Shown here: piece by piece, positions 5,508 through 55,215 of the stretch | Numbering within the stretch: position 1 is the first letter of the stretch | Layout: the number at the start of each line of letters is the position of its first letter | Source: Eledone cirrhosa | Lineage: Eukaryota | Assembly (NCBI GenBank): GCA_964016885.1 | Contig: OZ024742.1 | Location: forward strand, 297,228,001-297,292,000 | Direction of reading: 5' to 3' | Length of the DNA stretch: 64,000 nucleotides | The notes under the pieces: model-generated | Told to the model about the DNA's origin: nothing | Database searches by the model: none | The model's input: the letters and a program-made list of their open reading frames with translations, nothing else | Position numbers and translations under genes: made by a program

Positions 5508-5574
<67 letters not shown>

Positions 5575-6800
5575 AACCAGTAAGACCCCGCCGGCTGAGC
5601 TCAAGCCGTTTCGACGGCTAATTCTGGACTAAATGAAAATTTATCCTAGTATTTAAATAGCCGAGCTTCTCAAGAGGTAATTCCATATATGGTCAAATTG
5701 ATTGTCAAAAGTTAGTAGTAATTCTGTTATGGCAAATTAGTAGGGGAGATGGTGGCTAAACCTGCCAGTAGGAGAAAAAGGGGAGGGTGGGAGTAGACCC
5801 AATCATGCGATGGTAGTGCCGGCTACAGCTGGGAATGAGGTGAAAGAAGATACTGGGGAGGGGGAGGGGGAGTAAGTCGAAACGGTAGGTAGAACAATGA
5901 GGGGTAAAAAAATATATATGAAAGAAAAAAATACTGACAGTGATGAAAAGCGAATAAGTGTAAAGAAAAAAGAATATACAAGCAAGTTCTACGACCTAAG
6001 TCTCTAGCTATTGTTAGGCTAGATAAATAAATAAATAAAGAAAGAAAGAAATAAAGAAAGAAATAAAGAAAGAAAGAAATAAGTAAATAAACTAGGTGGG
6101 ACGGAATAGGAAAGGACCCTTTTAAGAGGTATAAGTACGTAAATCATACGGTGACGGGTCAACAAATGGGGCCAAAATACTAAAGAAACTACCACGAAAT
6201 AAATAATAAACGTTTCTACCCCGGGCACAAGGCCAGCAACCACCCAGTGCAGAAAAGTAAACTAGTACGAGATAATAATTCTGAGTCCCGAAAAAAATAT
6301 ACTAATGCTAACTCTAAATGTACAGCCACGCTACAAAAGTTCTTATACAAGCTACATGAAAGTTGTAGAATACGGAAAAATAAATTCAGAATCCACCCCG
6401 CCCAAAAGAAAAGAGAAGAAAGAAATACTGAAACGAGAAATTAAGGCATAAGTGCCACTAAGAAATATAGAAGGCACGGAAAAAAGGGGGAGCGGTCGGA
6501 AAAGGGGGCAAGTATCCGAGGTCTAACACAGCTGCTATAAAAACGGAGTCCGCCAAATCTATCATAGACTAGGGGTGGGGGGGGGGGGGGGTACTGAGGC
6601 TACAAGGGGCCAAAGGGCAACCTCGGGTGGGCGAGAAAAAGACGCCGACAAAGAAGAACTGGGGTAGAAGGACTAAGGAGGGATGGGGGAAGAAGGAAAT
6701 AAAGGAAGCGATAAAAGAATAAAAAGAAGATCTTACGTCTCCCTTGGCAAGCAGGGGTTACCCATTGCAAAATCGGCAAGTGGGGTGTTATAGCCCTAGT

Positions 6801-7475
6801 CTACCCCCCCCCCCCCCCCGGGTCATTATGGGGTTTGAGGGCGAGGTAAGTCCTACGCAATTTATGTTTACATGCAGTAACCAGTTCATCTTTCTTGTTT
6901 AGGAGTTGGTCGGTCGAAAACAGCATTTGTAAAGTTTCCTCCGAGCATAAATTGCACGGACGGCGTCCTCCCGTGTAAGAGTTGGCTCTGGACAGTAATC
7001 TCCAAGTGAGATCATAGGTGATGTTGTTGTCCTTGAGGTCCCATATGTGGTCCGAAAGTGTAGTGGCGTGACGCCGGGCCGGGTTTCGGAAGGTATGTCT
7101 ATGTTGGTATAGCCGGGTCTTGAAGTCACATGCGGTTAGTCCTATATAAGCTTTGTTGGAGGTGTCCGTCCTCACGTTGCACTGGTAGATCACATTACGG
7201 TCTCTGCATCTATTGTCGAGTGGGCAAATGGATCTATCCGGACAGTTGCACCTCCTGGTCGGCTCTCCACTGCTATTTAGGTTATTTCTTCCATCGGGGT
7301 TGAGTTTTTTGTTGTTGGAGGAGACGATGTTTTGTGCGAAGTTTGGTGTAGTGCTGTAAGAGAGTTTGATGGTATTTTTGTTAATTATGTTGTGGTAACG
7401 GTGTTGTAGTGGGAAGTGTTTTTCAATGAGCCTAAAGAATATTTTCCCGATGGGAGTTGTCGATTGTACCGTGAT
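6801..7475 (-). pseudogene. Inverted copy of the PLE linker + GIY-YIG domain
   Basis: IGKIFFRLIEKHFP...CNC..CPLDNRC..VIYQC..YIGLT..FKTR..CNLC; mirror of 7910-8594. Confidence 0.85.
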
Positions 7476-8594
7476 GATGGGTTCCTTACCCTTAAAGGGT
7501 ACAACCCCAGTAGTACAGATCGGGTCCGGAAACAATTAATCAGCTTCTTCCGCGACTGGGGATTTAAAATAACCCTACAAACGTCCCTGACCCGAGTAAA
7601 CTTCCTGGACGTGACCCTCGACCTCGAAAACGACCTGTACTACCCATACAGGAAACCTAATGACAACCTGCACTACATCCACCGCCGATCAAACCACCCT
7701 AGGAACATCACCAACAACCTGGTCAAAAATATCTCCCTCCGCATATCCCGTTTGTCAGCTAATGAGCGGATATTCGATGAACATGCGCCTTATTACAACC
7801 AGGCCCTCAAGCGGAGTGGTTTACGGGAGGAAATATCCTACTGTCCAGCTCCCATTAGCGGAACCAGCAGGAGACACCGCCGCTCACGCAATGTAACATT
7901 GGAGCCCATAATCACGGTACAATCGACAACTCCCATCGGGAAAATATTCTTTAGGCTCATTGAAAAACACTTCCCACTATAACACCGCTACCACAACATA
8001 ATTAACAAAAATACCATCAAACACTCTTACAGCACTACACCAAACTTCGCACAAAACATCGTCTCCCCCAACAACAAAAAACTCAACCCCGATGGAAGAA
8101 ATAACCTAAATAGCAGTGGAGAGCCGACCAGGAGGTGCAACTGTCCGGATAGATCCATTTGCCCACTCGACAATAGATGCAGAGACCGTAATGTGATCTA
8201 CCAGTGCAACGTGAGGACGGACACCTCCAACAAAGCTTATATAGGACTAACCGCATGTGACTTCAAGACCCGGCTATACCAACATAGACATACCTTCCGA
8301 AACCCGGCCCGGCGTCACGCCACTACACTTTCGGACCACATATGGGACCTCAAGGACAACAACATCACCTATGATCTCACTTGGAGATTACTGTCCAGAG
8401 CCAACTCTTACACGGGAGGACGCCGTCCGTGCAATTTATGCTCGGAGGAAACTTTACAAATGCTGTTTTCGACCGACCAACTCCTAAACAAGAAAGATGA
8501 ACTGGTTACTGCATGTAAACATAAATTGCGTAGGACTTACCTCGCCCTCAAACCCCATAATGACCCGGGGGGGGGGGGTAGACTAGGGCTATAA
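7464..8594 (+). pseudogene. PLE RT C-terminal half + GIY-YIG endonuclease (stop at 7980-7982)
   Basis: ORFs 7416-7982 and 8193-8594 share a frame; TAA here corresponds to CAA (Gln) in the inverted copy 6801-7535(-). Confidence 0.85.
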
Positions 8595-9311
8595 CACCCC
8601 ACTTGCCGATTTTGCAATGGGTAACCCCTGCTTGCCAAGGGAGATGTAAGATCTTCTTTTTATTCTTTTATCGCTTCCTTTATTTCCTTCTTCCCCCATC
8701 CCTCCTTAGTCCTTCTACCCCAGTTCTTCTTCTTTGTCGGCGTCTTTTTCTCGCCCACCCGAGGTTGCCCTTTGGCCCCTTGTAGTCTCAGTACCCCCCC
8801 CCCCCCCCCTAGTCTATGATAGATTTGGCGGACTCCGCTTTTTATAGCAGTTGTGTTAGACCTCGGATACTTGCCCCCTTTTCCGACCGCTCCCCCTTTT
8901 TTCCGTGCCTTCTATATTTCTTAGTGGCACTTATGCCTTAATTTCTCGTTTCAGTATTTCTTTCTTCTCTTTTCTTTTGGGCGGGGTGGATTCTGAATTT
9001 ATTTTTCCGTATTCTACAACTTTCATGTAGCTTGTATAAGAACTTTTGTAGCGTGGCTGTACCTTTAGAGTTAGCATTAGTATATTTTTTTCGGGACTCA
9101 GAATTATTATCTCGTACTAGTTTACTTTTCTGCACTGGGTGGTTGCTGGCCTTGTGCCCGGGGTAGAAACGTTTATTATTTATTTCGTGGTAGTTTCTTT
9201 AGTATTTTGGCCCCATTTGTTGACCCGTCACAGTATGATTTACGTACTTATACCTCTTAAAAGGTCCTTTCCTATTTCGCCCCACCTAGTTTATTTACTT
9301 ATTTCGTTATT

Positions 9312-9377
<66 letters not shown>

Positions 9378-9907
9378 TCTAGCCTAACAATAGCTAGAGA
9401 CTTAGGTCGTAGAACTTGCTTGTATATTCTTTTTTCTTTACACTTATTCGCTTTTCATCACTGTCAGTATTTTTTCTTTCATATATATATTTTTACCCCT
9501 CATTGTTCTACCTACCGTTTCGACTTACTCCCCCTCCCCCCCCCCCAGTATCTTCTTTGACCTCATGCCCAGCTGTAGCCGGCACTACCATCGCATGATT
9601 GGGTCTACTCCCACCCTCCCCTTTTTCTCCTACTGGCAGGTTTAGCCACCATCTCCCCAACTAATTTGCCATCACAGAATTACTACTAACTTTTGACAAT
9701 CGCTTTGACCATATATGGAATTACCCCTTGAGAAGCTCGGCTATTTAAATACCAGGATAAATTTTCATTTAGTCCAGAATTAGCCGTCGAAACGGCTTGA
9801 GCTCAGCCGTCGGGGTCTTACTGGTTCCTATTACCCACTCTACTACCCTAAGTATTGAGTACTTTGGTGCTTTATGGTCCACCTGGTTCCTTACCACATT
9901 TCCTTCG

Positions 9908-9942
<35 letters not shown>

Positions 9943-10392: not shown

Positions 10393-10441
10393 TATATATA
10401 TATATATATATAGTTATGTAATAAACAACATAAGGCAATTA

Positions 10442-10502
10442 TTTCATTTACCAGTGGTTTCTTAAAAGCAAACTAATTTTGCTTTCAATCATCAGAATGA
10501 AA
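10442..10502 (-). ncRNA. Type I hammerhead ribozyme motif, family A
   Basis: UUUCAUU-CUGAUGA-11-bp stem II-GAAA-CCACUGG-UA-AAUGAAA. Confidence 0.8.
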
Positions 10503-11325
10503 AAATCCTGGTGTATTTATTGACATTGGATTTTAAAAACAAAAATATAATCTATATGAAAGTGAGGCTGGAAAAGGAAGAAGGAAAGGAAAAATAAACA
10601 CACATGCACACACACACACACAATTACATACACACATATATATACATACACATATATATATATACATAATACACACACACACTTATATATGTATATATAT
10701 ATACATATCCATACATACACATACACACAAATTCACAAACACGCACACCCCCACACACACACATGCATATATATATATATATATACATACATACACACAA
10801 TCATACATATATACACACGTACATACACACACATACATACACACATATTTACACGCATACATACGCATGCACAAATATAGATATATGTACACACACCTAC
10901 ATACGCACACACACAAATAATTATAAGAAAAAATATAATGATAAAAATACCGTCACATAAGAATAAAAATGAATATAAAAATTATTATAAAGTTGACAGC
11001 GATACAGGCAACAAATAAATGAACAAACACACGTGGTAAGCAATACACACAATTGCACATACACATACATACGTAAAAATAAATACATACACACACACAC
11101 TTACACATACATATACATATACACGTAAATACACATACACATATACATACACACACACATATATACATATATATATATATATATATATTGTTATACTCTG
11201 GGAGGGTGATGTTGCCAATAAGAAACACACGCACCAGTTGCTTTCACTTCAATTTATTATAATAAATTTATAAATTTATAAATTTCTAGTTGGTTGGTTC
11301 CACAACCAGATAGTTGTTTATATAT

Positions 11326-11370
11326 AGTCATAGTTCTTTCGTCACACACTCTGTGACCTCTTCAGTGACT
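11326..11370 (-). ncRNA. Minimal hammerhead ribozyme motif, family B
   Basis: Reverse complement of 13937-13981. Confidence 0.75.
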
Positions 11371-12026
11371 GGGTATTCATTTCTTTGTTTCTGTGCCTCT
11401 CCTTTGTTCTGTCCTACGCCATTTTGTTTCTGTGTGTGTGTTGTGTGCTCAGTCTGCGCATGCGCCACATCCGGGTGTCTGTGTGTGTTTATGTTCATTT
11501 ATTTATTTGTTTATTTACATGTTACTGGTTGGTTGTTTGTTCTATGTGTGTGTGTGTTTTCATTTTGTCCTTAATTGTAAGTTGTGATGTTGCTGTTCCA
11601 CTCATATTTTCTATTTAACTTTGGTTGTAATTCTTTTATGTTTATTGCCTCTGTAATTTGTCTAAACATTGCGTCTTTTCTGTGTGTAGATTCTATTTTT
11701 ATTTCTATGTTCTCTAATTTACTCTTGTGTTCTATTTTAGCATGTTGGTAGAGTACAGATGATTCTTTATTATCTTGAAGGTCTCGCCAGTGTTCATTTA
11801 TCCGTTCCCCTACACTACGAGCTGTCTCACCTATGTACACTATATTTTTGTCTCTACATTGTCCTTCAGTACATCTTATGCTATACACTACATTTCTAGT
11901 TTTACAGTTAATATGGGGGCTTATTTTACAGGTTATACATTTCTTATCTATACATGAGGGTCTTTGAAAAGGGTATGTCTTGCTAATAAGTGTTTTTACG
12001 GAGGTACCTGGTCTTTCTACTATCTT

Positions 12027-13740
12027 AAGCAGAATCGTCGTGGGTAACCGATCTGGGGACCTAACAAACTGCATAATAGGCAGTATGGATGTTGTGTCCC
12101 TGTATCCATCTATTGACGTGGATTTTGCTGTGGAGAAATGCGTAGAAATTATCAGTGAGAGCAAGGTTGAGTTCTGTGGGATTGATACAAGTGAGCTGGG
12201 ACTCCTACTTAAGCTTACCTATAGTAATAATTACCTAGACACATATGACCTTAGCAACCTGTGCCCTATAAGACCAGCAAGAGGCAGACCACCTACCATT
12301 ACCTCAACGGCCAAGAAAACCCACACAGATAGATGGAATGGGTGGACCAGAGCCATACGGACACCCGAAAACCACGATGAATTGAAGAAAATGATTGCAC
12401 ATGCGGTAGGGGCCAGCATAAAACTAACCCTTAAGGAACATATGTTCAAATTTAATGGAAAAACATATGCCAAAGAGGAAGGAGCAGCCATTGGTGTTAG
12501 CATTGCAGGCGACATAGCTAACTTATTCATGGTATGGTGGGACAGTAGACTTAAACTTAAACTTAAAGAACAATTAGAAGACCCCTTAACCCTGATAATG
12601 TACTCCCGCTACGTAGATGATATAAACATCGTAGTTAAGACACCCCCACTAGAGAACAGTCAGGAACTAGAGAAAAACACAATGGAAAGCATCCAGCAAA
12701 TAGCAAACTCCATCCACCAGAGTATTAGAGTTACTATAGACTACCCAAGTAAACACCCCAACCATCGATTACCTGTACTAGACACAGAGCTCTGGTTAGA
12801 TACCATTAACAATAAAAAACAAATCCTCCATTCCCATTATGGCAAACCCATGACTTCCAAACATCTGATCCACCGAAACTTGGCCGTTTCGGACCATACC
12901 AAAATCAACATACTGATTGCGGATTTGGTACGGGTGATGAGAAATGTGTCCCGCATGTGCAACCCCGAAGAACTAGAGAGACACATACAACACTTCATCC
13001 ACCGTATGCAGTTCTCTGGCTACAATCAGAGAGATCAAATCAGAGTGTATAGAGGAGCCAGAACCAAATGGGAAAAAATGGTAAATAATGACATAAATGG
13101 GACCTGCCCCTTGAATAGGAGCAAATTTTGGAATAGAATAGAAAGAACTAGGAACAAGGCTAATAGAATAAACTCATGGTATGATAGCAATAAATACCAG
13201 AGTGTAATGTTCATCGATACAACCCCTAGAGGTGAATTAGCTTACAAATTTAGAAGGGCCCTAAATAAACATAAACTCAATATTAAGATAATAGAAAGAC
13301 CAGGTACCTCCGTAAAAACACTTATTAGCAAGACATACCCTTTTCAAAGACCCTCATGTATAGTTAAGAAATGTATAACCTGTAAAATAAGCCCCCATAT
13401 TAACTGTAAAACTAGAAATGTAGTGTATAGCATAAAATGTACTGAAGGACAATGCAGAGACAAAAATATAGTGTACATAGGTGAGACAGCTCGTAGTGTA
13501 GGGGAACGGATAAATGAACACTGGCGAGACCTTCAAGATAATAAAGAATCATCTGTACTCTACCAACATGCTAAAATTGAACACAAGAGTAAATTAGAGA
13601 ACATAGAAATAAAAATAGAATCTACACACAGAAAAGACGCAATGTTTAGACAAATTACAGAGGCAATAAACATAAAAGAATTACAACCAAAGTTAAATAG
13701 AAAATATGAGTGGAACAGCAACATCACAACTTACAATTAA
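12027..13740 (+). CDS. PLE reverse transcriptase-GIY-YIG polyprotein, open but 5'-truncated
   Basis: Motifs SMDVVSLYPSI, GAAIG..AGDIANLFM, YSRYVDD, LPVLD, Cys-rich linker, NVVYSIKC...YIGETARS..ER..EH; the first ~15 codons of track ORF 11980-13740 come from the inverted arm. Confidence 0.88.
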
Positions 13741-13936
13741 GGACAAAATGAAAACACACACACACATAGAACAAACAACCAACCAGTAACATGTAAATAA
13801 AAAAATAAATGAACATAAACACACACAGACACCCGGATGTGGCACATGCGCAGACTGAGCACACAACACACACACAGAAACAAAATGGCGTAGGACAGAA
13901 CAAAGGAGAGGCACAGAAACAAAGAAAAGAATCCCC

Positions 13937-13981
13937 AGTCACTGAAGAGGTCACAGAGTGTGTGACGAAAGAACTATGACT
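13937..13981 (+). ncRNA. Minimal hammerhead ribozyme motif, family B
   Basis: AGUCA-CUGAAGA-G-GUCAC[agagugu]GUGAC-GAAA-GAACUA-UGACU: 5-bp stem I, 5-bp stem II, 2-bp stem III, predicted cleavage after CUA (13976). Confidence 0.78.
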
Positions 13982-14182
13982 ATATATAAACAACTATCTG
14001 GTTGTGGAACCAACCAACCAACCAGAAATTTATAAATTTATTATAAATTTTTTATAATAAATTGATGTGAAAGCAACTGGTGCGTGTGTTTTTATTGGCA
14101 ACATGACCCTCCCAAAGTATAACAATATCGGTTTCAACACACGATTTCAGATAAAGAATCTTGCTAAACAAATTCAGAAACG

Positions 14183-14275
<93 letters not shown>

Positions 14276-14985: not shown

Positions 14986-16870
14986 AATACAACAGAAGCA
15001 TATAAAATACAATTATATACACACATACATATACATACAGATATAAAAACATACATACACACGTACATATACATACATATATATGTATATATGCATATAT
15101 ACACATATGCGCAACACACACACACACACACAGAAATAAATATCTAAAAATAAAAAAGGTGGGTATGTGAAGGGTAAGGTAGAAAGTAGGGGGGAAAAAT
15201 AAGGAAAATAAATGACATAGGAAAAGGTTTAAATATAAGGGGAGATAAGGGAGAAAAAGAATATAAGAGTACAGAAAGTGAATTCAGGAGATAAAAAAAT
15301 CGTAGTGGATGTAAAATGTAGAGAGCAGAGAAGAAGTTCAAGGTGGTTGAGTTATCGTAGGAATGTCAATCCAGTTACAGATCAGATGTGATTTCAGGTG
15401 AGGACAACATCTGAAGATCTCGGTCTTGGAGTTCAGGCAAGTTGAAGTGCCTTTCAAGTTTTGTAAAACCTAAATTTGTCAGTGGTACACAAAGAACAAT
15501 TCTTTGTGCCCCTTTGGTACTCCCTCGAATGGTCTAAAATAGACCAATCGATAGAGTACGAAGATAAGGTAGAAATACTACGGCTAATGTTGGGAATAAG
15601 ATTTTTAAAAACTATAGGGGGATGGCAAGACTCTTTGTGTATATATCTAAGATTTTCGTTAGGTTTATAAAGTTTAAAAGAGTCAGTAAGTAGATCAAGA
15701 TTAATGTCAAGAAAGTTAGCATTGGTAAGGTTTGTATCTATAGTAATTTAAATTACTATTATAATAAATATTATAATAAACCCCTTAATAACATCCCCTA
15801 GAGTTTTTAAAAATCTTATTCCCAACATTAGCCGTAGGATTTCTACCTTATCTTCGTATCTAGATATTTTTAATAAAGCCGCCCCTTATTATAATAACGC
15901 CCTTAATAACAGCGGATTTACATAACAAATTAATTATTTACCTACTCCCCCCTAAAACTAACCACAATAATAGGAAAAGGAAAATTATTTGGTTTACACC
16001 CCCCTTCTCTCTAACTGTCAAAACTAATGTAGGAAGGAAATTCTTTGACCGCTTAGATAAACATTTTCCTCATAATCATAGATATTATAAGATATTTAAT
16101 AGAAATGTAGTTAAAATCAGTTACTCTTGCTGTCCATCAATGAAGTCTAAAATCACTAATTCCAATCGTACGAGAATAAATCCAGGATGCAGTTGCAGGA
16201 AGCCGGATGAATGCCCATTACAGGGCAAATGTAACACCAAATCCGTTGTATATGAGGCCAAAGTGACACCTTTAATTAACAACCAGCCAGCCAGGAGTGA
16301 ACGATATGTTGACATGACCCAGGACAGGTTTAAAACAAGGTTTTATGCACATTTCGCTTCTTTTAAACACTCCGATAAAAGAACAGCAACGGCTCTCGCA
16401 AATAAGGTGTGGGAATTCAAGGATAAAAACATCCGGTACTCTATCGATTGGTCTATTTTAGACCATTCGAGGGAGTACCAAAGGGGCACAAAGAATTGTT
16501 CTTTGTGTACCACTGACAAATTTAGGATTTTACAAAACTTGAAAGCCACTTCAACTTGCCTGAACTCCAAGACCGAGATCTTCAGATGTTGTCCTCACCT
16601 GAAATCACATCTGATCTGTAACTGGATTTACATTCCTACGATAACTGAACTTCTTCTCTGCTCTCTACATTTTACATCCACTACGATTTTTTTACCTTCT
16701 GAATTCACTTTCTGTACTCTTATATTCTTTTTCTCCCTTATCTCCCCTTATATTTAAACCTTTTCCTATGTCATTTATTTTCCTTATTTCCCCCCCCCCC
16801 TACTTTGTACCTTACCCTTCACATACCCACCTTTTTTATTTTTAGATATTTATTTCTGTGTGTGTGTGTA
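14811..16870 (+). mobile_element. Rearranged fold-back Penelope-like element (RT thumb + GIY-YIG)
   Basis: GIY-YIG ORF 16140-16757; ~15125-15559 mirrors ~16435-16870; 15556-15632 mirrors 15792-15858; minus strand at ~15700 encodes NANFLDINLDL; terminus at ~14811-14861 resembles 5571-5620. Confidence 0.85.
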
Positions 16871-18055: not shown

Positions 18056-18575
18056 GTGTTCTGTGTGTATGTATTTATTTTTACGTATGTATGTGTATGT
18101 GCAATTATGTGTATTACTTACCACGTGTGTTTGTTCATTTATTTGTTGCCTGTATCGCTGTCAACTTTATAATAATTTTTATATTCATTTTTATTCTTAT
18201 GTGACGGTATTTTTATCATTATATTTTTTCTCATAATTATTTGTGTGTGTGCGTATGTAGGTGTGTGTACATATATCTATATTTGTGCATGCGTATGTAT
18301 GCGTGTATATATGTGTGTATGTATGTGTGTGTATGTACGTGTGTATATATGTATGATTGTGTGTATGTATGTATATATATATGTATATATGTATGTGTGT
18401 GTGTGTGTGCGTGTTTGTGTATTTGTGTGTATGTGTATGTATGGATATGTTGATATATATATGTGTGTATGTATGTATGTGTATATGTATGTGTATGTAT
18501 ATATATATATACATATATGTGTGTGTGTGTATGTATGTGTATATATATGTGTATGTATATATGTGTGTGTATGTA

Positions 18576-18618
<43 letters not shown>

Positions 18619-18880
18619 ATGTGTTTATTTTTCCTTTCCCTCTTCCTTTTCCAGCCTCACTTTCATATAGATTATATTTTTGTTTTTAAAATCCAATGTC
18701 AGTAAATACACCAGGATTTTTTCATTCTGATGATTGAAAGCAAAATTTGTTTGCTTTTAAGAAACCACTGGTAAATGAAATAATTGCCTTATGTTGTCTA
18801 TTACATAACTATTAAGCTCTGTAACCTACATAGAGCACTCTTTTTTCCTGGACCTTTCCGACGGAATTACTTCATTCACA
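17832..18880 (+). mobile_element. Right arm of non-coding hammerhead-bearing element family A, with tail
   Basis: Mirror of 10411-14390; microsatellite-rich body; tail 18813-18880 absent from the left arm. Confidence 0.8.
18720..18780 (+). ncRNA. Type I hammerhead ribozyme motif, family A
   Basis: Stem I UUUCAUU/AAUGAAA, CUGAUGA, stem II UUGAAAGCAAA/UUUGCUUUUAA, GAAA, stem III ACC/GGU, cleavage triplet GUA (18771-18773). Confidence 0.85.
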
Positions 18881-31500: not shown

Positions 31501-32269
31501 ATCTAATAATATGTTGATATCTTGGTTGAAGAATAATTAGTGCATTTACACCCAGTTATACATATGTATATATTTATCCCTAACATCCTTCAATATATTA
31601 TCTTATTTTATTTTTATCTTCGTCGTTATTATTTACCTTAAACATACTGGCTCATTAATATATACCTATATACATAATAGTTATTTAAATATTTATAACA
31701 ATAATGTACTTCAAAGGCTTTACATACCTAATACGTTGGGATATTTGTTAAAGTTTAAATTTAGGTAAATAATCAACAGTATAATATTTCATTCTTTATG
31801 TGGCAGCTAAATCCTTTAAATGTTACTCTCACAATTCAGAAGTTTAGAAATGATAACACACTTATCGAATTTATATAAATAATATATAAATAACCAGCAA
31901 ATAATCCTGAAATCGGGAGTCTTCACCCTAATATTATAAATTAAATATTTTCAAATCTAACCGTTTAACTTTCGAAAAAAAACCCACACTTTATTTTTCC
32001 CTCTTTATAAATCTTTTTCCAGTGGCTATCACTGGCTGTTATGATTCATGAGATGTTTTCCTAGATATATCGTAGTATCATACACTTTAAAATTTTAGAA
32101 CACTTACAGTATGCAACGTTTTTTATTACTCACACATTCTCTAATGAATTTACTATGTTTTCGCATTTTCTCATAGATAGGATATAAGTAACATTTTCTA
32201 TCGGGTTAATCACTACCTTGATTAAATCTTAACCATTTAACATCTCAGGGTATGTCATGTATCATTATA

Positions 32270-32320
32270 TTTTGTCTGATGAGGACGTACTGTTGTACAT
32301 CCGAAATATGTATAATAAAA
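32270..32320 (+). ncRNA. Hammerhead ribozyme motif, family E (partly decayed)
   Basis: CUGAUGA-GGACGUAC[uguu]GUACAUCC-GAAA-UAUGUA; 8-bp stem II with one mismatch; stem I weak. Confidence 0.55.
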
Positions 32321-32475: not shown

Positions 32476-33652
32476 TGGGACGACATGATAAATTCCGACC
32501 TCACACGCTTACACCTCTCCAAGACAATGTCACTGGACTGAGACCTTTGGCGGTACTCAGTAATAGAGAAGACCCGCCTTACCTAAATACAAAGTAAAAC
32601 CTACTACAGTCAGTAGGCATCTCTATCAAAACACACCCCCGTCCCACCACCCCCACCCCATCCACACCGCCCCTTTCAATGTAAAGTTATGTTGGTGCCA
32701 CAACATCCAGGCCGAAACAAATGAGATCGTGTAGGTGTCACGACAAAAAAACACACAGTCCACGCTGTAAATGTGGCCATGTAGGCAACATGGTAAAAAC
32801 CTCCCAGCCCCACACTGTATATGTGGTTGGTGTTAGGAAGGGCATCCAGCTGTAGAAAACCCGCCAGACAGTCCACGCTGTAATGTGGCCGTGTAGGCAA
32901 CACGGTAAAAACCTCCCAGCCCCACACTGTAAATGTGGTTGGTGTTAGGAAGGGCATCCAGCTGTAGAAAACCCGCCAGACAGTCCACGCTGTAATGTGG
33001 CCGTGTAGGCAACACGGTAAAAACCTCCCAGCCCCACACTGTAAATGTGGTTGGTGTTAGGAAGGGCATCCAGCTGTAGAAAACCCGCCAGACAGTCCAC
33101 GCTGTAATGTGGCCGTGTAGGCAACACGGTAAAAACCTCCCAGCCCCACACTGTAAATGTGGTTGGTGTTAGGAAGGGCATCCAGCTGTAGAAAACCCGC
33201 CAGACAGTCCACGCTGTAATGTGGCCGTGTAGGCAACACGGTAAAAACCTCCCAGCCCCACATTGTAAATGTGGTTGGTGTTAGGAAGGGCATCCAGCTG
33301 TAGAAAACCCGCCAGACAGTCCACGCTGTAATGTGGCCGTGTAGGCAACACGGTAAAAACCTCCCAGCCCCACACTGTAAATGTGGTTGGTGTTAGGAAG
33401 GGCATCCAGCTGTAGAAAACCCGCCAGACAGTCCACGCTGTAATGTGGCCGTGTAGGCAACACGGTAAAAACCTCCCAGCCCCACACTGTAAATGTGGTT
33501 GGTGTTAGGAAGGGCATCCAGCTGTAGAAAACCCGCCAGACAGTCCTATGCAAGCAAGACAACCACTCTTGCCTCAAGTGGGAAAATCCCCGTCCAAACC
33601 CATGCAAGCGTGGAACACGGACGCTAAACCTTGATGATGATGATGATGATGA
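32476..33652 (+). mobile_element. 3' fragment of the 19752-23243 RTE family with expanded UTR
   Basis: 32476-32755 matches 22737-23017; 33541-33652 matches 23128-23243. Confidence 0.92.
32756..33540 (+). repeat. Tandem array, 7 x 112 bp
   Basis: Units start at 32756, 32869, 32981, 33093, 33205, 33317, 33429; units 2-7 are nearly identical. Confidence 0.95.
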
Positions 33653-34014
33653 TATATATATATATATATCAGTTCCCGTCCCACCCTTGTAAGCAGGGAA
33701 AAGCAGACGTAAAATGATGATGATAATAAAAAATAAAAAATATATATATATATATATATATATAAATATATATATATGTAAGTATGCATGTATACGTACA
33801 TACATATATGTATACAGACGTACAGTAGCATGCACATATATATATATATATACATATATATACATATGCATACAGGTACACATACATATATGCACGTATC
33901 AGTTTAGCGGCGCTAACGTCGCTTTGTTCGTTTGTAAACAAACTGAACAGCCTGAATTTATGCCATACGGTGTTAAGGCAACCACGTCACCTTTTTGTTC
34001 AACACTGACACAGG

Positions 34015-34059
34015 AACGATGTACTAGTTTCAAGCTTGTTAGCTATCATCAGCACCGTT
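34015..34059 (-). ncRNA. Minimal hammerhead ribozyme motif, family C
   Basis: Reverse complement of 34359-34403. Confidence 0.78.
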
Positions 34060-34358
34060 TACCCATCTGCCAGATAGTTGAACGTTCGAAAGTATATACT
34101 TTCCTTATATATATATATGTGCATGCTACTGTACGTCTGTATACATATATGTATGTACGTATACATGCATACTTACATTTAAGTAAGTGCCATACTAAGA
34201 GTGAGAAATGAAATTTCGTTTTCATTTTGTTTCAATTTATCGTTTTCGGTATGCCTGACCGATTTAACTCACTCAATATGCAAATTAGGCTGCTCAGCCG
34301 TTAATTTTCATAAGGAAAGTATATACTTTCGAACGTTCAACTATCTGGCAGATGGGTA

Positions 34359-34403
34359 AACGGTGCTGATGATAGCTAACAAGCTTGAAACTAGTACATC
34401 GTT
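34359..34403 (+). ncRNA. Minimal hammerhead ribozyme motif, family C
   Basis: AACGGUG-CUGAUGA-U-AGCU[aaca]AGCU-U-GAAA-CUAG-UA-CAUCGUU; palindromic ACUAGU stem III; GUA triplet. Confidence 0.82.
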
Positions 34404-34696
34404 CCTGTGTCAGTGTTGAACAAAAAGGTGACGTGGTTGCCTTAACACCGTATGGCATAAATTCAGGCTGTTCAGTTTGTTTACAAACGAACAAAGCGAC
34501 GTTAGCGCCGCTAAACTGATACGTGCATATATGTATGTGTACCTGTATGCATATGTATATATATGTATATATATATATATATGTGCATGCTACTGTACGT
34601 CTGTATACATATATGTATGTACGTATACATGCATACTTACATTTAAGTAAGTGCCATACTAAGAGTGAGAAATGAAATTTCGTTTTCATTTTGTTT

Positions 34697-34792
<96 letters not shown>

Positions 34793-34994
34793 TATATATA
34801 TATATGATGTATGTGTGTGTGAGACACCAACTGTAACTTTAAACTGGCACTGTTTTAAAGCAAGTTGTTATCTATGTCTATGTCCTGCAGCTTAGCTGTT
34901 TCAGAAAGGTCAGTAGTGTATACCTTGATTTAGCATCAGAAATGTCATCTTACTTCAGAAGTTCTCACACCAGCATGGGAAAAGCAGGCATAAA

Positions 34995-35180: not shown

Positions 35181-36589
35181 GTGTTTTTTTTGTTAGTCAC
35201 AGTGGTTATGTTTATGATGATGGCTCTACTAAGGTCTGTAATAATTACAAATCTAATTTAACACAGTGACTTTGTAAATTCTTCTGGTTTAAAATAAGTT
35301 TGTTCTGCTTATCTCTGTTGACAGTTTTGCTGATCTATCTATGAAATGAATAAAACAACAATAATAGAAATAAATTGAATTCAGTATTATTCTGTGTTGT
35401 TGATATTTCACTTTAGACGTTACTATTTCAATGTCTGTTACATATTTTAATTAAATTATAGGTTTTAGATATTTTACAATTTTATGATTTTCACTTTCAT
35501 TTCCTAAAATCTATAAAATAAGTTACATATAACAAAAATATTTCTCTAGTTGATTTTATCACCTTCACTAACAACCATTGCTTCAGAACTAAGTTAAATA
35601 GTGTTTTATTTCACAAATAGAGAAATGTCCAAGTGGTTAATATAACAAACAACCAGTGATATTCTTTATCTCTTAATGCTCACATGAAACCGCATGAGCA
35701 AGACAGTCTTGAAAAATATACAACAACATTAGACTACACCACAGTATAAAGTAAAGTCTTTACTCAACTAGTACTCATGTAACAATTATTTATCTACTTT
35801 TAAAGATACTAAAGATACTAATCCAGCTTTTAGAAATTTACTGTAACATTTGATAGAGTAAATAGGAAAGCAAATGAATTATCAAAGGAGGGAATACAAA
35901 GGGAAATAATAGATATAGACTACATCCTAACTCTATTGCAAGTGAAACCATTTACCAAAAATTTAATTAGTCAAGGGTGGCTCAAATTTTTGGAAGAATC
36001 TAGCTCTCAAATTTCAGTCCTCTACTTTCTCAACCAGATCTGTCAACATTTAAAACAGATCAGACACTGGGCAATGTTAATAAAAAGACTATGCTGGATT
36101 TGAATAAGACATATACCTTTTAACTACATTTTATCATGAAGAGGTCGTAGAGAACCTCTATGTTCTTGTAGTGACTTCCCAGAAACCATTTGTCCAGATG
36201 TAAAAACTATCATTCTAAGAGAGAAGACTTGTTGAAGCCGATCATTAATAAAACTACCAAGATTAAAGATACAATACATTGTAAAAGATCTACCAACTAT
36301 AATCAACATCTTTGAGAACATGGAGGTTACAACCCTTGTTTTCCAATTTTTCTTTATCTTTTTTTATACCTCTTTTGCTTCCAATTGGTCTTCCATACCA
36401 AATTTTTTAATTTTTGATTTTATTAAAAAAGAAATAGGATTTCGCTCAAGCATAGCTTTATACAATATGTATAAATATTTCGTATCTCCAAAGAAACACG
36501 GTTTTAGGAAGCCGTAGTTATGCAAACACCGGGGGTGGGGGGGGGGGGCTGACGCCCTCTGGTCATGTCCAGCAGAAGCAAGGGGGACA

Positions 36590-36633
36590 ACCGTCTATGC
36601 ATTTCAGGCTTAACTGGCCATCGTCAGGACGGT
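36590..36633 (-). ncRNA. Minimal hammerhead ribozyme motif, family D
   Basis: ACCGUC-CUGACGA-UGGC[caguuaa]GCCU-GAAA-UGCA-UA-GACGGU; perfect 6-bp stem I. Confidence 0.82.
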
Positions 36634-36861
36634 CCCTCCCACCACTTGCGACTGCTGGACTAGAAGACAGGCGAGAATATATAGTTTTCTCGTCTTGTAT
36701 AAAGCTATGCTTGAAGCGAAATCTTATTTCTTTTTTATTTTAAGTTGAGCCGACTTATGCAGCTTCATATGCAAAAGAGATTAATCACCTCATTTACACA
36801 GACAAGAAAACTATATATTCTCGCCTGTCCTCTAGTCCAGCAGTCGCAAGCAGTGGGAAGG

Positions 36862-36905
36862 ACCGTCCTGACGAAGGCCAGTTAAGCCTGAAATGCATAG
36901 ACAGT
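36862..36905 (+). ncRNA. Minimal hammerhead ribozyme motif, family D
   Basis: ACCGUC-CUGACGA-AGGC[caguuaa]GCCU-GAAA-UGCA-UA-GACAGU; perfect stem II; palindromic AUGCAU. Confidence 0.82.
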
Positions 36906-37407
36906 TGTCCCCCTTGCTTCTGCTGGACATCACCAGGGGGCGTTAGCCCCCCCCCCGGTGTTTGCATAGCTACGGCTTCCTAAAGCCATGTTTCTTTGGA
37001 GATACGAAACATTTATACATTTTGATTTTATTGTTATATTCATTTATCTCTGTCTATCTTGTTTTTGTTTCTCAACTGTAAGAAGAACTAGACACCTCTT
37101 CTAGTCACCTCTTCTAGTCTATAGATTTAATATATAAATATATCGTTTAAATTTAATATATAAATAAATAAATCTACACATATTTAGAAGGCTTGAGAAC
37201 TTTACTCCCATGCCCCTCCCAGGTATAAGTGGAAGAAGGGGAAGGAGGACGAGCAGGAGGAATAAGAAGAATTATTTTAAATGTTTTAATAAATTTTGGA
37301 CTGACATGAAAGTTCAGCCATGCATGTGATAAATAAGGAAATGAAAGGAATCGATCATTAGGACCAAGAAAACTACATTTCCATTGGTATTTTCATTGTT
37401 GATATTG

Positions 37408-53027: not shown

Positions 53028-55215
53028 CACTGGTCTGCATTTCAAAACTTTTTTTAAAAGGTCAAGGGTTTTCCAAATGATTTAGGACCCTTTTTGCATG
53101 CTGAATTCAAAAATACAATTTATTTTTCTGGGTCAGGTCTGGTTTCTAAGATATAGTCTATTTCTTTTCCAGCATATTTTTCTAAAATATCGCAATCCAA
53201 GCGTTTATGGGCTTTGCTTTTGCAAAACCGAGTCGTGGGTAACCTTTAATAATTATTTTTATTTCTCTTTTCACGTCTAGAAACATGGATCGGAAGTGTA
53301 AAAACCATCCTAATAGGTTCTGTTACATCTGCGGACATGTGGTTCTTCCAGACCGTCAAGCAAAAATCACGGATTTTGTGAAGAAGGCATATCACGCTTA
53401 CTTTGGAGTCAAACTAGGGGACCAGGATAAGCTATTCGCTCCCCATATCTGCTGCAAAACATGTGTAGAGAACTTACGGGATTGGAGGAACAAGAAAAGG
53501 AAGAGTATGCCATTTGGTGTCCCAATGGTGTGGAGGGAAGGGAAAGATCACGTTACCGACTGCTACTTTTGCATGACAAATCTAAAAGGCATCAATCGCA
53601 AGAACAAGCACCATGTTCAATACCCTGATGTTCCTTCTGCCATAAAGCCAGTCCCCCATGGCCCCGATCTTCCTGTTCCTGAGCCAAATGTTACCATGGA
53701 ATCTAGTTCTGATTCCGAATCTAGTGACATGATTGATACAGCTAAGTGTGATGAATACAGGTCAGAAGAGGACGACCAACTGGTGCCTTTGACCCAAGCC
53801 GAACTCAATGACCTGACACGAGACCTGAACCTTTCGAAGGAGTCTACTGGGTTCTTGTCTTCGAGAGAAACGTCTACTGGCGCCAGGAACAACATTCTAT
53901 TATTGGTATCGGGACCGCGAGAGAGAATTTAGAAAATTCTTCATGTTTGATGAAGCATCTTCACTGGTCTACTGTAGCAATATTGCTGACCTGATTGAAT
54001 TACTTGGTCTGAAGTATGATGTTATGGAATGGAGACTTTTCATTGACTCATCTAACAGAAGTCTCAAAGCAGTTCTTCTGAATATCGGAAACAAGTTTTC
54101 ATCGATCCCTGTTGGGCACTCAGTTGAAATGAAAGAATCCCACAAAAGCATGGAACGTCTGTTGTCTGCTCTGAACTACCAGAAACATAAATGGTTGATC
54201 TGTGGAGATCTTAAAGTTGTTGGACGCATCCTAGGACTTCAAGGTGGTTACACAAAGTATCCATGCTTTCTGTGCTTATGGGATAGCCGTGCTGATGACC
54301 AGCATTATGTCAGACAAGAGTGGCCATTAAGACAAGGATTAAAACCTGGATCACACAACGTTTTGTCCCACCCTCTGGTTGAACCGAGCAAGATATTGCT
54401 TCCAACCCTCCACATCAAACTCGGTCTCATGAAGAACTTTGTAAAGGCATTGGACCGGGAAGGTGGAGGATTTGCTTTCCTCCATCAGAAGTTTCAACGA
54501 AAAAGCATGGAGAAAATTAAGGCAGGTATATTTGATGGTCCTCAAATAAGGGAACTCATCAAGGATACTAGTTTTGATGATGCACTGAATCCTGCTGAAC
54601 TCTCTTCCTGGTTGTCCCTAAAGTCAGTCATTGCAAACTTCCTTGGCAACCACAGAAGTTCCCAGTATCAGAAGGTGGTTGATGAGTTAATGGAGAATTT
54701 CCGCCAACTTGGTGCGCGCGTGTCAGTGAAAATGCACTTCCTCCGGTCTCATCTGGACTATTTTCCAGAGAATTGTGGAGACTTCAGTGAAGAACATGGT
54801 GAGCGATTTCACCAAGATATCAGTGTTATGGAGGAACGCTATCAAGGCCGATGGGATGTCAACTTTCTGGCCGACTACTGCTGGTGCCTAAAGAGGGATG
54901 CGCAGTCTGCTCAGCACAAACGGAAGTCCCTGAAGAGACCATTCATCCATGAGTAGCTTCCTTAGTTCATTATACTCTTCTTGCTATCTATTCAAAATAT
55001 TTTGTAAGCCTTCTGTGAATAAATCAGTCTAATATTTTCAATATTGCGTTTTACTCACCTACAAATAGATCGGAATTTAGGATATTTTTAATGTGCTAAT
55101 ATTTCATTAACCTGATCTGATTGAGTAAAATGAGCATGATTTTTGGATTCAGTGCAAAAAACTGGCCTAAAATCATGTATTATATGTTAGACCTTGAAAA
55201 CATCGCAGACCAGTG
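53028..55215 (+). mobile_element. Chapaev3-type (CMC superfamily) DNA transposon, complete
   Basis: Termini CACTGGTCTGC...GCAGACCAGTG; TTA duplication at 53025-53027 and 55216-55218; similar subterminal regions; internal transposase. Confidence 0.88.
53285..54956 (+). pseudogene. Chapaev3-like transposase with one frameshift near 53845
   Basis: N-terminal Cys-rich finger FCYICG..CCKTC..H..DCYFC; WRLFIDSS, CGDLKVV, CFLCLW, LHIKLGLMKNFVKAL, GERFHQDI; the frame of 53943-54956 is open back to ~53848. Confidence 0.88.

What the first reader, a model, noticed from the sequence alone, without database searches (positions are those of the whole stretch)
33776..34700. Second, unrelated permuted hammerhead element (family C, ~464-nt monomer) with both inverted and direct repeats
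Seen: an inverted arm (33776-34108) is followed by a >1-mer sense copy whose terminal ~125 nt also precede its start (period 464). Both arms carry AACGGUG-CUGAUGA..GAAA-CUAG-UA-CAUCGUU. The arms look essentially identical, which suggests a recent insertion. The tail contains a GTAAGT splice-donor-like motif. Inferred: an active non-autonomous element reverse-transcribed past its own end.
Basis: partly seen in the sequence, partly recalled or inferred. Interest (0 to 1): 0.75.

Follow-up and report, generated by a model that had tools for sequence, protein, structure and literature searches.

The report
Two-armed hammerhead retrozyme with internal promoter
This is one recent copy of a 464-base non-coding repeat, present in thousands of places in this animal genome, that carries a predicted self-cutting RNA behind a likely promoter resembling those of the host's U6 and RNase MRP genes, and whose ends show the insertion pattern of Penelope-type jumping genes, which likely copy it.

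Summary
In detail: a perfect 333-nt inverted arm, a 131-nt direct repeat at period 464, and a type I hammerhead fold on each strand. The 3.0-Gb genome holds 10,333 exact ribozyme cores and 8,272 head-to-tail junctions, so this is a non-coding retrozyme family, not a local duplication. Copies end at two fixed sites 58-60 nt apart, almost always in (TA)n. All 43 classifiable two-armed insertions have one long and one short end, and both arms share one sequence variant. This is the known Penelope-like (PLE) 'tail' anatomy; autonomous PLEs in the same window show it too. The unit carries an octamer box and a TATA box just before the ribozyme. The same octamer box lies upstream of host U6 and RNase MRP genes but not U2; spacing differs (41 versus 45-46 nt). 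The mobilising PLE was not identified, no RNA data were available, and the splice-donor idea is unsupported. This copy has one sense-strand ribozyme and is probably a dead end. Retrozymes, their proposed PLE link and an snRNA-type promoter (newt) are in print; the scan noted this system before on other DNA of this genome.

The parts
33740..33775 (.). left (TA)n target tract
   Evidence: sequence
33776..34108 (-). inverted arm (unit positions 74-406), ending at the 'short' 3' end, without the tail and without the octamer box
   Evidence: 333/333 exact; end class
34015..34059 (-). type I hammerhead motif of the inverted arm
   Evidence: motif scan
34106..34108 (.). 3-nt overlap at the junction of the two arms
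   Evidence: arm ends 34108, direct repeat starts 34106
34106..34236 (+). partial preceding unit (last 131 nt of the monomer, including the tail)
34237..34700 (+). one complete 464-nt monomer
   Evidence: 8,272 head-to-tail junctions genome-wide
34277..34288 (+). octamer box TATGCAAATTAG, same as the box at -76/-77 of host U6 and RNase MRP genes
34319..34326 (+). TATA-like box GTATATAC; start of transcription predicted at 34350 from the host spacing (inferred)
34359..34403 (+). type I hammerhead: 7-bp helix I, CUGAUGA, helix II with U-U at its base, GAAA, palindromic weak helix III (ACUAGU), predicted cut after 34396
34518..34581 (+). internal TA/TG microsatellite, source of unit-length variation (about 454-520 nt)
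34634..34653 (+). hairpin whose loop holds the short 3' end; its 3' arm is the GTAAGT motif
   Evidence: fold (done on the identical first copy 34170-34189)
34643..34700 (+). 58-nt tail, present only on the right arm (long 3' end)
34701..34805 (.). right (TA)n target tract

Best explanation
This is a young insertion of a high-copy, non-coding 464-nt hammerhead repeat (an animal non-LTR retrozyme) that was likely written into a (TA)n tract by the reverse transcriptase and endonuclease of a Penelope-like element, from an RNA likely made from its own internal octamer-TATA promoter. Shown: copy number, tandem unit, two fixed 3' ends, (TA)n target, one long and one short end per two-armed insertion, shared variant in both arms, promoter-like boxes that match host genes. 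Inferred steps: (1) transcription starts near 34350, nine bases before helix I, and reads into the next unit; (2) two neighbouring ribozymes pair through the palindromic helix III and cut out a permuted monomer that carries the promoter boxes inside, which may be ligated to a circle; (3) the PLE protein cuts both strands of (TA)n and primes cDNA from both ends of the break on the same RNA (circle or uncut multimer), one at each of two internal start sites 58-60 nt apart; (4) the two cDNAs stop at variable places and are joined head to head. Copying more than one unit restores a promoter upstream of a full unit. This copy has 1.3 sense units and one sense ribozyme, so it likely cannot release a monomer by itself.
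For: 10,333 exact cores, control 0; 8,272 tail-to-head junctions, control 0; 3,428 matches of long end plus TA, control 209, some counted twice; 4,278 exact copies of a 52-nt word of this subfamily. 43 of 52 non-edge two-armed clusters are long+short, 0 long+long or short+short, 9 with an unclassifiable end; 125 of 133 classified ends have (TA)4 within 30 nt against 4.1% of random window positions. Divergence 0.73% within an arm, 0.83% between arms, 3.2% between loci; 9 of 12 locus-private shared variants are in all units that cover them. Only 1 of 63 mapped 5' ends lies within unit positions 150-170 around the cut site. Autonomous PLEs here have the same anatomy: Neptune-like with a 59-60-nt tail, Hydra-type with an 80-nt tail. 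The tail equals the distance between two internal RT start sites, and both strands are cut and extended in vitro (PMC11167929). Octamer at -76/-77 and TATA at -31 in two single U6 loci and RNase MRP, a one-base variant in the U6 array, none in three U2 arrays; 0 of 20 motif positions carry a variant shared by 3 or more insertions against 17 of 78 neighbouring positions, p=0.014.
Against: No autonomous PLE with sequence similarity to the unit was found, so the partner and its clade are unproven. Some arrays are not uniform: one variant linked to a unit length recurs in 3 of 19 pieces on both arms of the largest array, and another array alternates; a single monomer circle does not explain these, a multimeric template or later unequal exchange does. 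No A-to-G excess on the sense strand (11 vs 16, 1 vs 4, 9 vs 5), so there is no direct trace of an RNA stage. Octamer-TATA spacing is 41 nt against 45-46 in host genes, and 22 of the first 100 listed junctions hold a T7-T8 run that would be expected to stop polymerase III (host U6 ends in T7-T10), so the polymerase is undecided. The hammerhead region folds no better than shuffles (z -1.34); 8 of 9 Xenopus retrozyme dimers did not cleave in vitro.
Confidence: 0.8

Rival explanations
1. Same PLE mobilisation, but the template is an uncut linear multimer transcript and the ribozyme and circles play no part in transposition.
For: Ordered multi-unit patterns shared by both arms of one array and alternation in another; ribozyme cleavage was not needed for insertion by a lizard PLE in vitro (PMC11167929); 5' ends do not gather at the cut site.
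Against: Most arrays are uniform for locus-private variants (9 of 12); the catalytic core is kept across subfamilies 83% alike, the only shared core change being at the free position 7; circles are shown for coral, mussel and axolotl retrozymes (PMC7229834).
Confidence: 0.35
2. The inverted arm is not primed at the second strand of the target but copied from the first cDNA by fold-back or template switch.
For: Arms share their variant; overlaps or palindromes at several junctions; self-priming was proposed for rotifer PLEs (PMC3846280).
Against: Both arms end at fixed family-wide sites in (TA)n; either arm can be the longer one, and the short-ended arm can hold many more units than the long-ended arm, which a copy of the other arm cannot easily give.
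Confidence: 0.2
3. The copy is a 5'-truncated terminal repeat (pLTR) of an autonomous PLE.
For: Identical anatomy to autonomous PLEs in the window.
Against: The tail is joined directly to the start of the unit 8,272 times; arrays of up to about 14 units on one arm; no ORF adjoins the unit in the loci examined. A rare autonomous parent is not excluded.
Confidence: 0.06
4. A satellite or local duplication spread by DNA recombination, or an assembly artefact.
For: Some arrays show signs of unequal exchange; two fetched arrays are broken by 200-N runs; Li et al. favour local amplification for array growth.
Against: Thousands of dispersed insertions with two fixed ends, a (TA)n target and strict long/short pairing; contigs of public runs hold the unit and its variants.
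Confidence: 0.04

Closest known systems
Metazoan non-LTR retrozymes (Cervera and de la Pena 2020, PMC7229834; seen: passages, part 4 of 6, section 15)
   Same: Short non-coding tandem unit with a type I hammerhead; weak palindromic helix III as in axolotl HHR_Amex1 and a U-U at the base of helix II as in HHR_Amex2; PLEs proposed as mobilisers.
   Different: Unit slightly longer than the 150-450 bp given there; the passages read do not describe two-armed insertions, two fixed ends or (TA)n targeting; RNA circles shown there, untested here.
Retrozymes as non-autonomous PLE derivatives (Li, Clavereau, Pollet, bioRxiv 10.64898/2026.07.22.740005; seen: parts 1-3 of 5, supplements closed)
   Same: Same class and same proposed partner.
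   Different: Their case rests on co-occurrence and pLTR similarity in Xenopus; here the evidence is the insertion footprint, and no pLTR similarity to an autonomous element was found. By their rule (two consecutive ribozyme units) this copy is not an active retrozyme, though the family has such arrays.
EN+ Penelope-like elements, Neptune and Hydra clades (Craig et al. 2021, PMC8557442, passages and section 11; Frangieh et al. 2024, PMC11167929, parts 1-2 of 4; PMC3846280, passages)
   Same: Partial tandem plus inverted 5'-truncated copy, tail at one end only, (TA)n target, hammerhead; non-autonomous head-to-tail PLE derivatives (MRC1) are known in Chlamydomonas.
   Different: No ORF; tail 58-60 nt rather than the 30-40 nt cited; promoter module of host small-RNA type.
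Newt satellite 2 (Coats, Zhang, Epstein 1994; not held, seen only as cited in PMC2220036)
   Same: Hammerhead tandem repeat with an internal snRNA-type promoter.
   Different: Cited as polymerase II; here the module matches host U6/MRP (polymerase III by established knowledge) and not U2, with a TATA box; polymerase undecided.

Membership tests
Animal non-LTR retrozyme | Type I hammerhead in each unit | tested here: met
   (sequence motif; Rfam gave no hit)
Animal non-LTR retrozyme | Short head-to-tail tandem unit, dispersed in many copies | tested here: met
Animal non-LTR retrozyme | No protein coding, no LTR/PBS/PPT | tested here: met
   (only microsatellite-derived frames over the element, on the - strand or inverted arm); no tblastn match of five PLE protein pieces inside the units; PBS/PPT not searched
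Animal non-LTR retrozyme | Self-cleavage and linear/circular monomer RNA | not testable with these tools
   no RNA holder listed
Non-autonomous EN+ PLE derivative | Partial tandem plus inverted 5'-truncated copy | tested here: met
Non-autonomous EN+ PLE derivative | Tail at one end only (two fixed 3' ends) | tested here: met
   43 of 43 classifiable two-armed insertions
Non-autonomous EN+ PLE derivative | AT-rich or (TA)n target | tested here: met
   125 of 133 ends
Non-autonomous EN+ PLE derivative | Sequence shared with the terminal repeat of an autonomous PLE | tested here: inconclusive
   none found against the window and 30 Neptune-like loci or by eye in several Hydra-type ends; most PLE families of the genome were not examined
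Autonomous PLE | RT and GIY-YIG ORF between pLTRs | tested here: not met
U6/MRP-type (type 3 polymerase III) promoter | Octamer box and TATA box as in host genes | tested here: met
U6/MRP-type (type 3 polymerase III) promoter | Host spacing between the boxes (45-46 nt) | tested here: not met
   41 nt here, 41-42 in the sister family
U6/MRP-type (type 3 polymerase III) promoter | Transcription by polymerase III from the predicted start | not testable with these tools
   no T4 run from the predicted start to unit position 446, but T7-T8 runs inside arrays

The most novel reading that the evidence does not exclude
A minimal RNA replicon that has captured the host's U6/MRP-type promoter inside its circular RNA, and that a dimeric Penelope-type enzyme copies from both strands of a (TA)n break at two fixed start sites on one molecule, one enzyme per site, running round the circle several times; several sister families in this genome use the same design.
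Probability: 0.3. Interest if true: 0.72.

Novelty: new variant of a known kind. Interest (0 to 1): 0.5.

Why it matters
How animal retrozymes are transcribed and which enzyme inserts them is proposed but, in the papers read, not shown. This family gives exact predictions: a start near 34350, a cut after 34396, two reverse-transcription starts 58-60 nt apart, and one long plus one short end per insertion. With thousands of near-identical young copies and abundant PLEs with long open frames in the same genome, it can be tested with the existing in vitro PLE assay, and it bears on the open question of how PLE tails and inverted ends arise.

Tried and rejected
DNA search of the own genome with 34237-34520 found nothing, not even the window (the tool skips very common words), so patterns were used. 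Rfam: no hammerhead hit. Expression: no RNA holder listed; the six holders are contig sets of unknown kind; laying all six over two calls (one twice) gave cover in X2-X5 and none in X1 and X6, and no joint that removes an intron from GTAAGT; these say nothing on expression or splicing. Splice donor: set aside because the motif is a hairpin arm, the sister family has the same hairpin with a non-donor sequence, and two older copies read GTAAGA and GTAACA. RNA-editing scars (lead from e1-8803865): no A-to-G excess in 162 pieces from 61 loci. 5' ends at the predicted start: 14 of 63 in unit positions 100-130, p=0.05, rejected because the older loci were picked with a query starting at position 101, all loci needed an intact core or junction, and two 'ends' are N runs. 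Apparent shared octamer variants were mostly misalignments across inversion junctions; the octamer is intact in 124 of 128 pieces that cover it. Partner search: Neptune-like, Hydra-type, older subfamily loci and sister family loci gave no ORF-bearing relative. A PSE could not be defined from the few host promoters. Eleven further U6 hits, and one in L173, have no octamer and look like retrocopies; five of the 11 array copies fetched have a rearranged upstream region. Target-site duplication cannot be read in (TA)n. Literature searches found no paper on cephalopod retrozymes or on this promoter module; Coats 1994 and Ferbeyre 1998 are not held, and supplements of the papers, not read, may list this family.

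Full report
Observation. The inverted arm 33776-34108 is the exact reverse complement of 34310-34642 (333 nt), and 34106-34236 repeats exactly at 34570-34700 (131 nt, period 464). The element sits between (TA)n tracts. A motif scan finds a type I hammerhead on each strand, predicted to cut after 34396: helix I 7 bp, helix II AGCU/AGCU with a U-U at its base, helix III the palindrome ACUAGU. Both weak features are described in axolotl retrozyme ribozymes, which cleave much better as dimers (PMC7229834). Rfam does not find it and the region folds no better than shuffles (z -1.34), so the ribozyme call rests on the conserved core and helices.

Family. The window lies in a 3.0-Gb animal genome (cephalopod by my recollection of its repeats and by earlier notes; not tested). 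It holds 10,333 exact copies of the 37-nt core, 8,272 tail-to-head junctions, 3,428 long-end-plus-TA matches (control 209, some double-counted) and 4,278 exact copies of a 52-nt word typical of this copy's subfamily. Subfamilies range from identical to about 83% alike. Units are about 454-520 nt, varying in an internal microsatellite; arrays reach about 14 units on one arm. No PLE ORF adjoins the unit in the loci examined. The family is therefore non-autonomous and recently amplified; polymorphism was not tested.

Insertion footprint. In 84 loci (61 picked by core or junction pattern: the window and 60 from the first 80 Mb of contig C1; 23 picked with an older copy; six near-duplicate older loci left out), 3' ends fall at unit position about 406 or about 464-466. 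Of 54 automatically defined two-armed clusters, 2 at locus edges were dropped; of 52, 43 are long+short, none long+long or short+short, 9 have an unclassifiable end. Single-armed copies end long (22), short (14) or unclear (5). 125 of 133 classified ends abut (TA)n. This is the published PLE anatomy: inverted truncated copy plus a tail at one end only (PMC8557442; PMC3846280), where the tail is the distance between two internal RT starts and both target strands are cut and extended (PMC11167929). Two autonomous PLE types in this window show it: a Neptune-like family with long open frames, 39,443 first-look candidates and a 59-60-nt tail, and a Hydra-type family (CxCX5C linker) with an 80-nt tail. 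The 58-60-nt tail fits the first, the pyrimidine-rich long end resembles the second; neither shares sequence with the unit. The partner is unresolved.

Template. Units of one insertion differ by 0.73% within an arm and 0.83% between arms, against 3.2% between loci (112, 79 and 7,180 pairs). Nine of 12 locus-private variants seen in two or more units are in all units covering them. Both arms thus come from one RNA or one source. Only 1 of 63 mapped 5' ends lies near the cut site, and many arms run through it, so the template was a circle or an uncut multimer. Against a monomer circle as the only template: in the largest array one variant with a linked unit length recurs on both arms, and another array alternates. 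No A-to-G excess was found.

Promoter. The unit and the 329-nt sister family at 36420-37020 share TATGCAAATKAG, then 30-31 nt, then GTATATA, just before the ribozyme; a third ribozyme element has a similar pair. I then looked at host genes: two single U6 loci and RNase MRP have the same 12-nt box at -76/-77 and a TATA box at -31, the U6 array has a one-base variant, and three U2 arrays lack it. The two-box pattern occurs 19,780 times (control 1); the first 100 listed are these two families. Motif positions carry no variant shared by three or more of 72 insertions (0 of 20, against 17 of 78 neighbours, p=0.014, motif chosen beforehand from the two-family comparison). Host spacing predicts a start at 34350. 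For polymerase III: no T4 run for 330 nt after that start, then a T-rich cluster at the long end. Against: box spacing 41 instead of 45-46, and T7-T8 runs in 22 of the first 100 junctions. An snRNA-type promoter in a hammerhead repeat is known from newt satellite 2 (cited in PMC2220036; original not held).

This copy. The sense arm has 1.3 units and one ribozyme; the inverted arm lacks the octamer. It is likely a dead-end product of the family. GTAAGT is the 3' arm of the hairpin whose loop holds the short end, mirrored in the sister family by a non-donor sequence; I found no support for splicing.

Comparison and verdict. It is a member of the animal non-LTR retrozymes by every feature testable here and works like a non-autonomous PLE. 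The class, the proposed PLE link (PMC7229834; bioRxiv 10.64898/2026.07.22.740005) and head-to-tail non-autonomous PLEs (PMC8557442) are in print. The strict long/short two-armed footprint and the U6/MRP-like module were not found in seven literature searches; unread supplements may bear on this. Earlier notes of this scan describe the same system on other DNA of this genome; I reached the footprint and promoter results before reading them, and could not reproduce the editing scars one of them reports. New variant of a known kind; interest 0.5.

Noticed in passing
window 36420-37020: Sister retrozyme family: 329-nt unit, hammerhead with U-U at helix II, two-armed with a tail of about 43 nt, same octamer-TATA module; 2,692 first-look candidates.
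   Followed up: partly
window 11190-14185: Two-armed Neptune-like PLE with a 590-aa open frame, minimal hammerhead and 59-60-nt tail; very abundant, with copies at 95-98% protein identity.
   Followed up: partly
window 5570-9909: Two-armed Hydra-type PLE (CxCX5C linker) in (TA)n with an 80-nt tail; further Hydra-type pieces at 540-917 and 15864-16757.
   Followed up: partly
window 10410-11095 and 18062-18812: Hammerhead element with a long helix II whose inverted arms lie about 8 kb apart around nested PLE insertions.
   Followed up: no
window 32264-32320: Another type I hammerhead motif with a 12-bp helix I.
   Followed up: no
window 32755-33546: Seven near-identical 112-nt tandem copies of part of a dispersed SINE-like repeat.
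   Followed up: no
L067:5640-7601: 310-nt hammerhead tandem array with a short inverted arm, without the octamer, next to a family C insertion.
   Followed up: no
L034:4550-4900: Third hammerhead element with an octamer and a TATA-like box 42 nt apart.
   Followed up: partly
L177, L178, L179, L206 (upstream of U6 and RNase MRP): Host polymerase III small-RNA genes have an unusually proximal octamer box at -76/-77; U2 arrays have none within the stretch examined.
   Followed up: partly
L066, L084, L117, L129: PLE and retrozyme insertions are nested in each other's (TA)n tracts, which makes these tracts insertion hot spots.
   Followed up: no
window 53243-54956: Long open frames that resemble a DNA-transposon transposase (recalled resemblance, not tested).
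   Followed up: no
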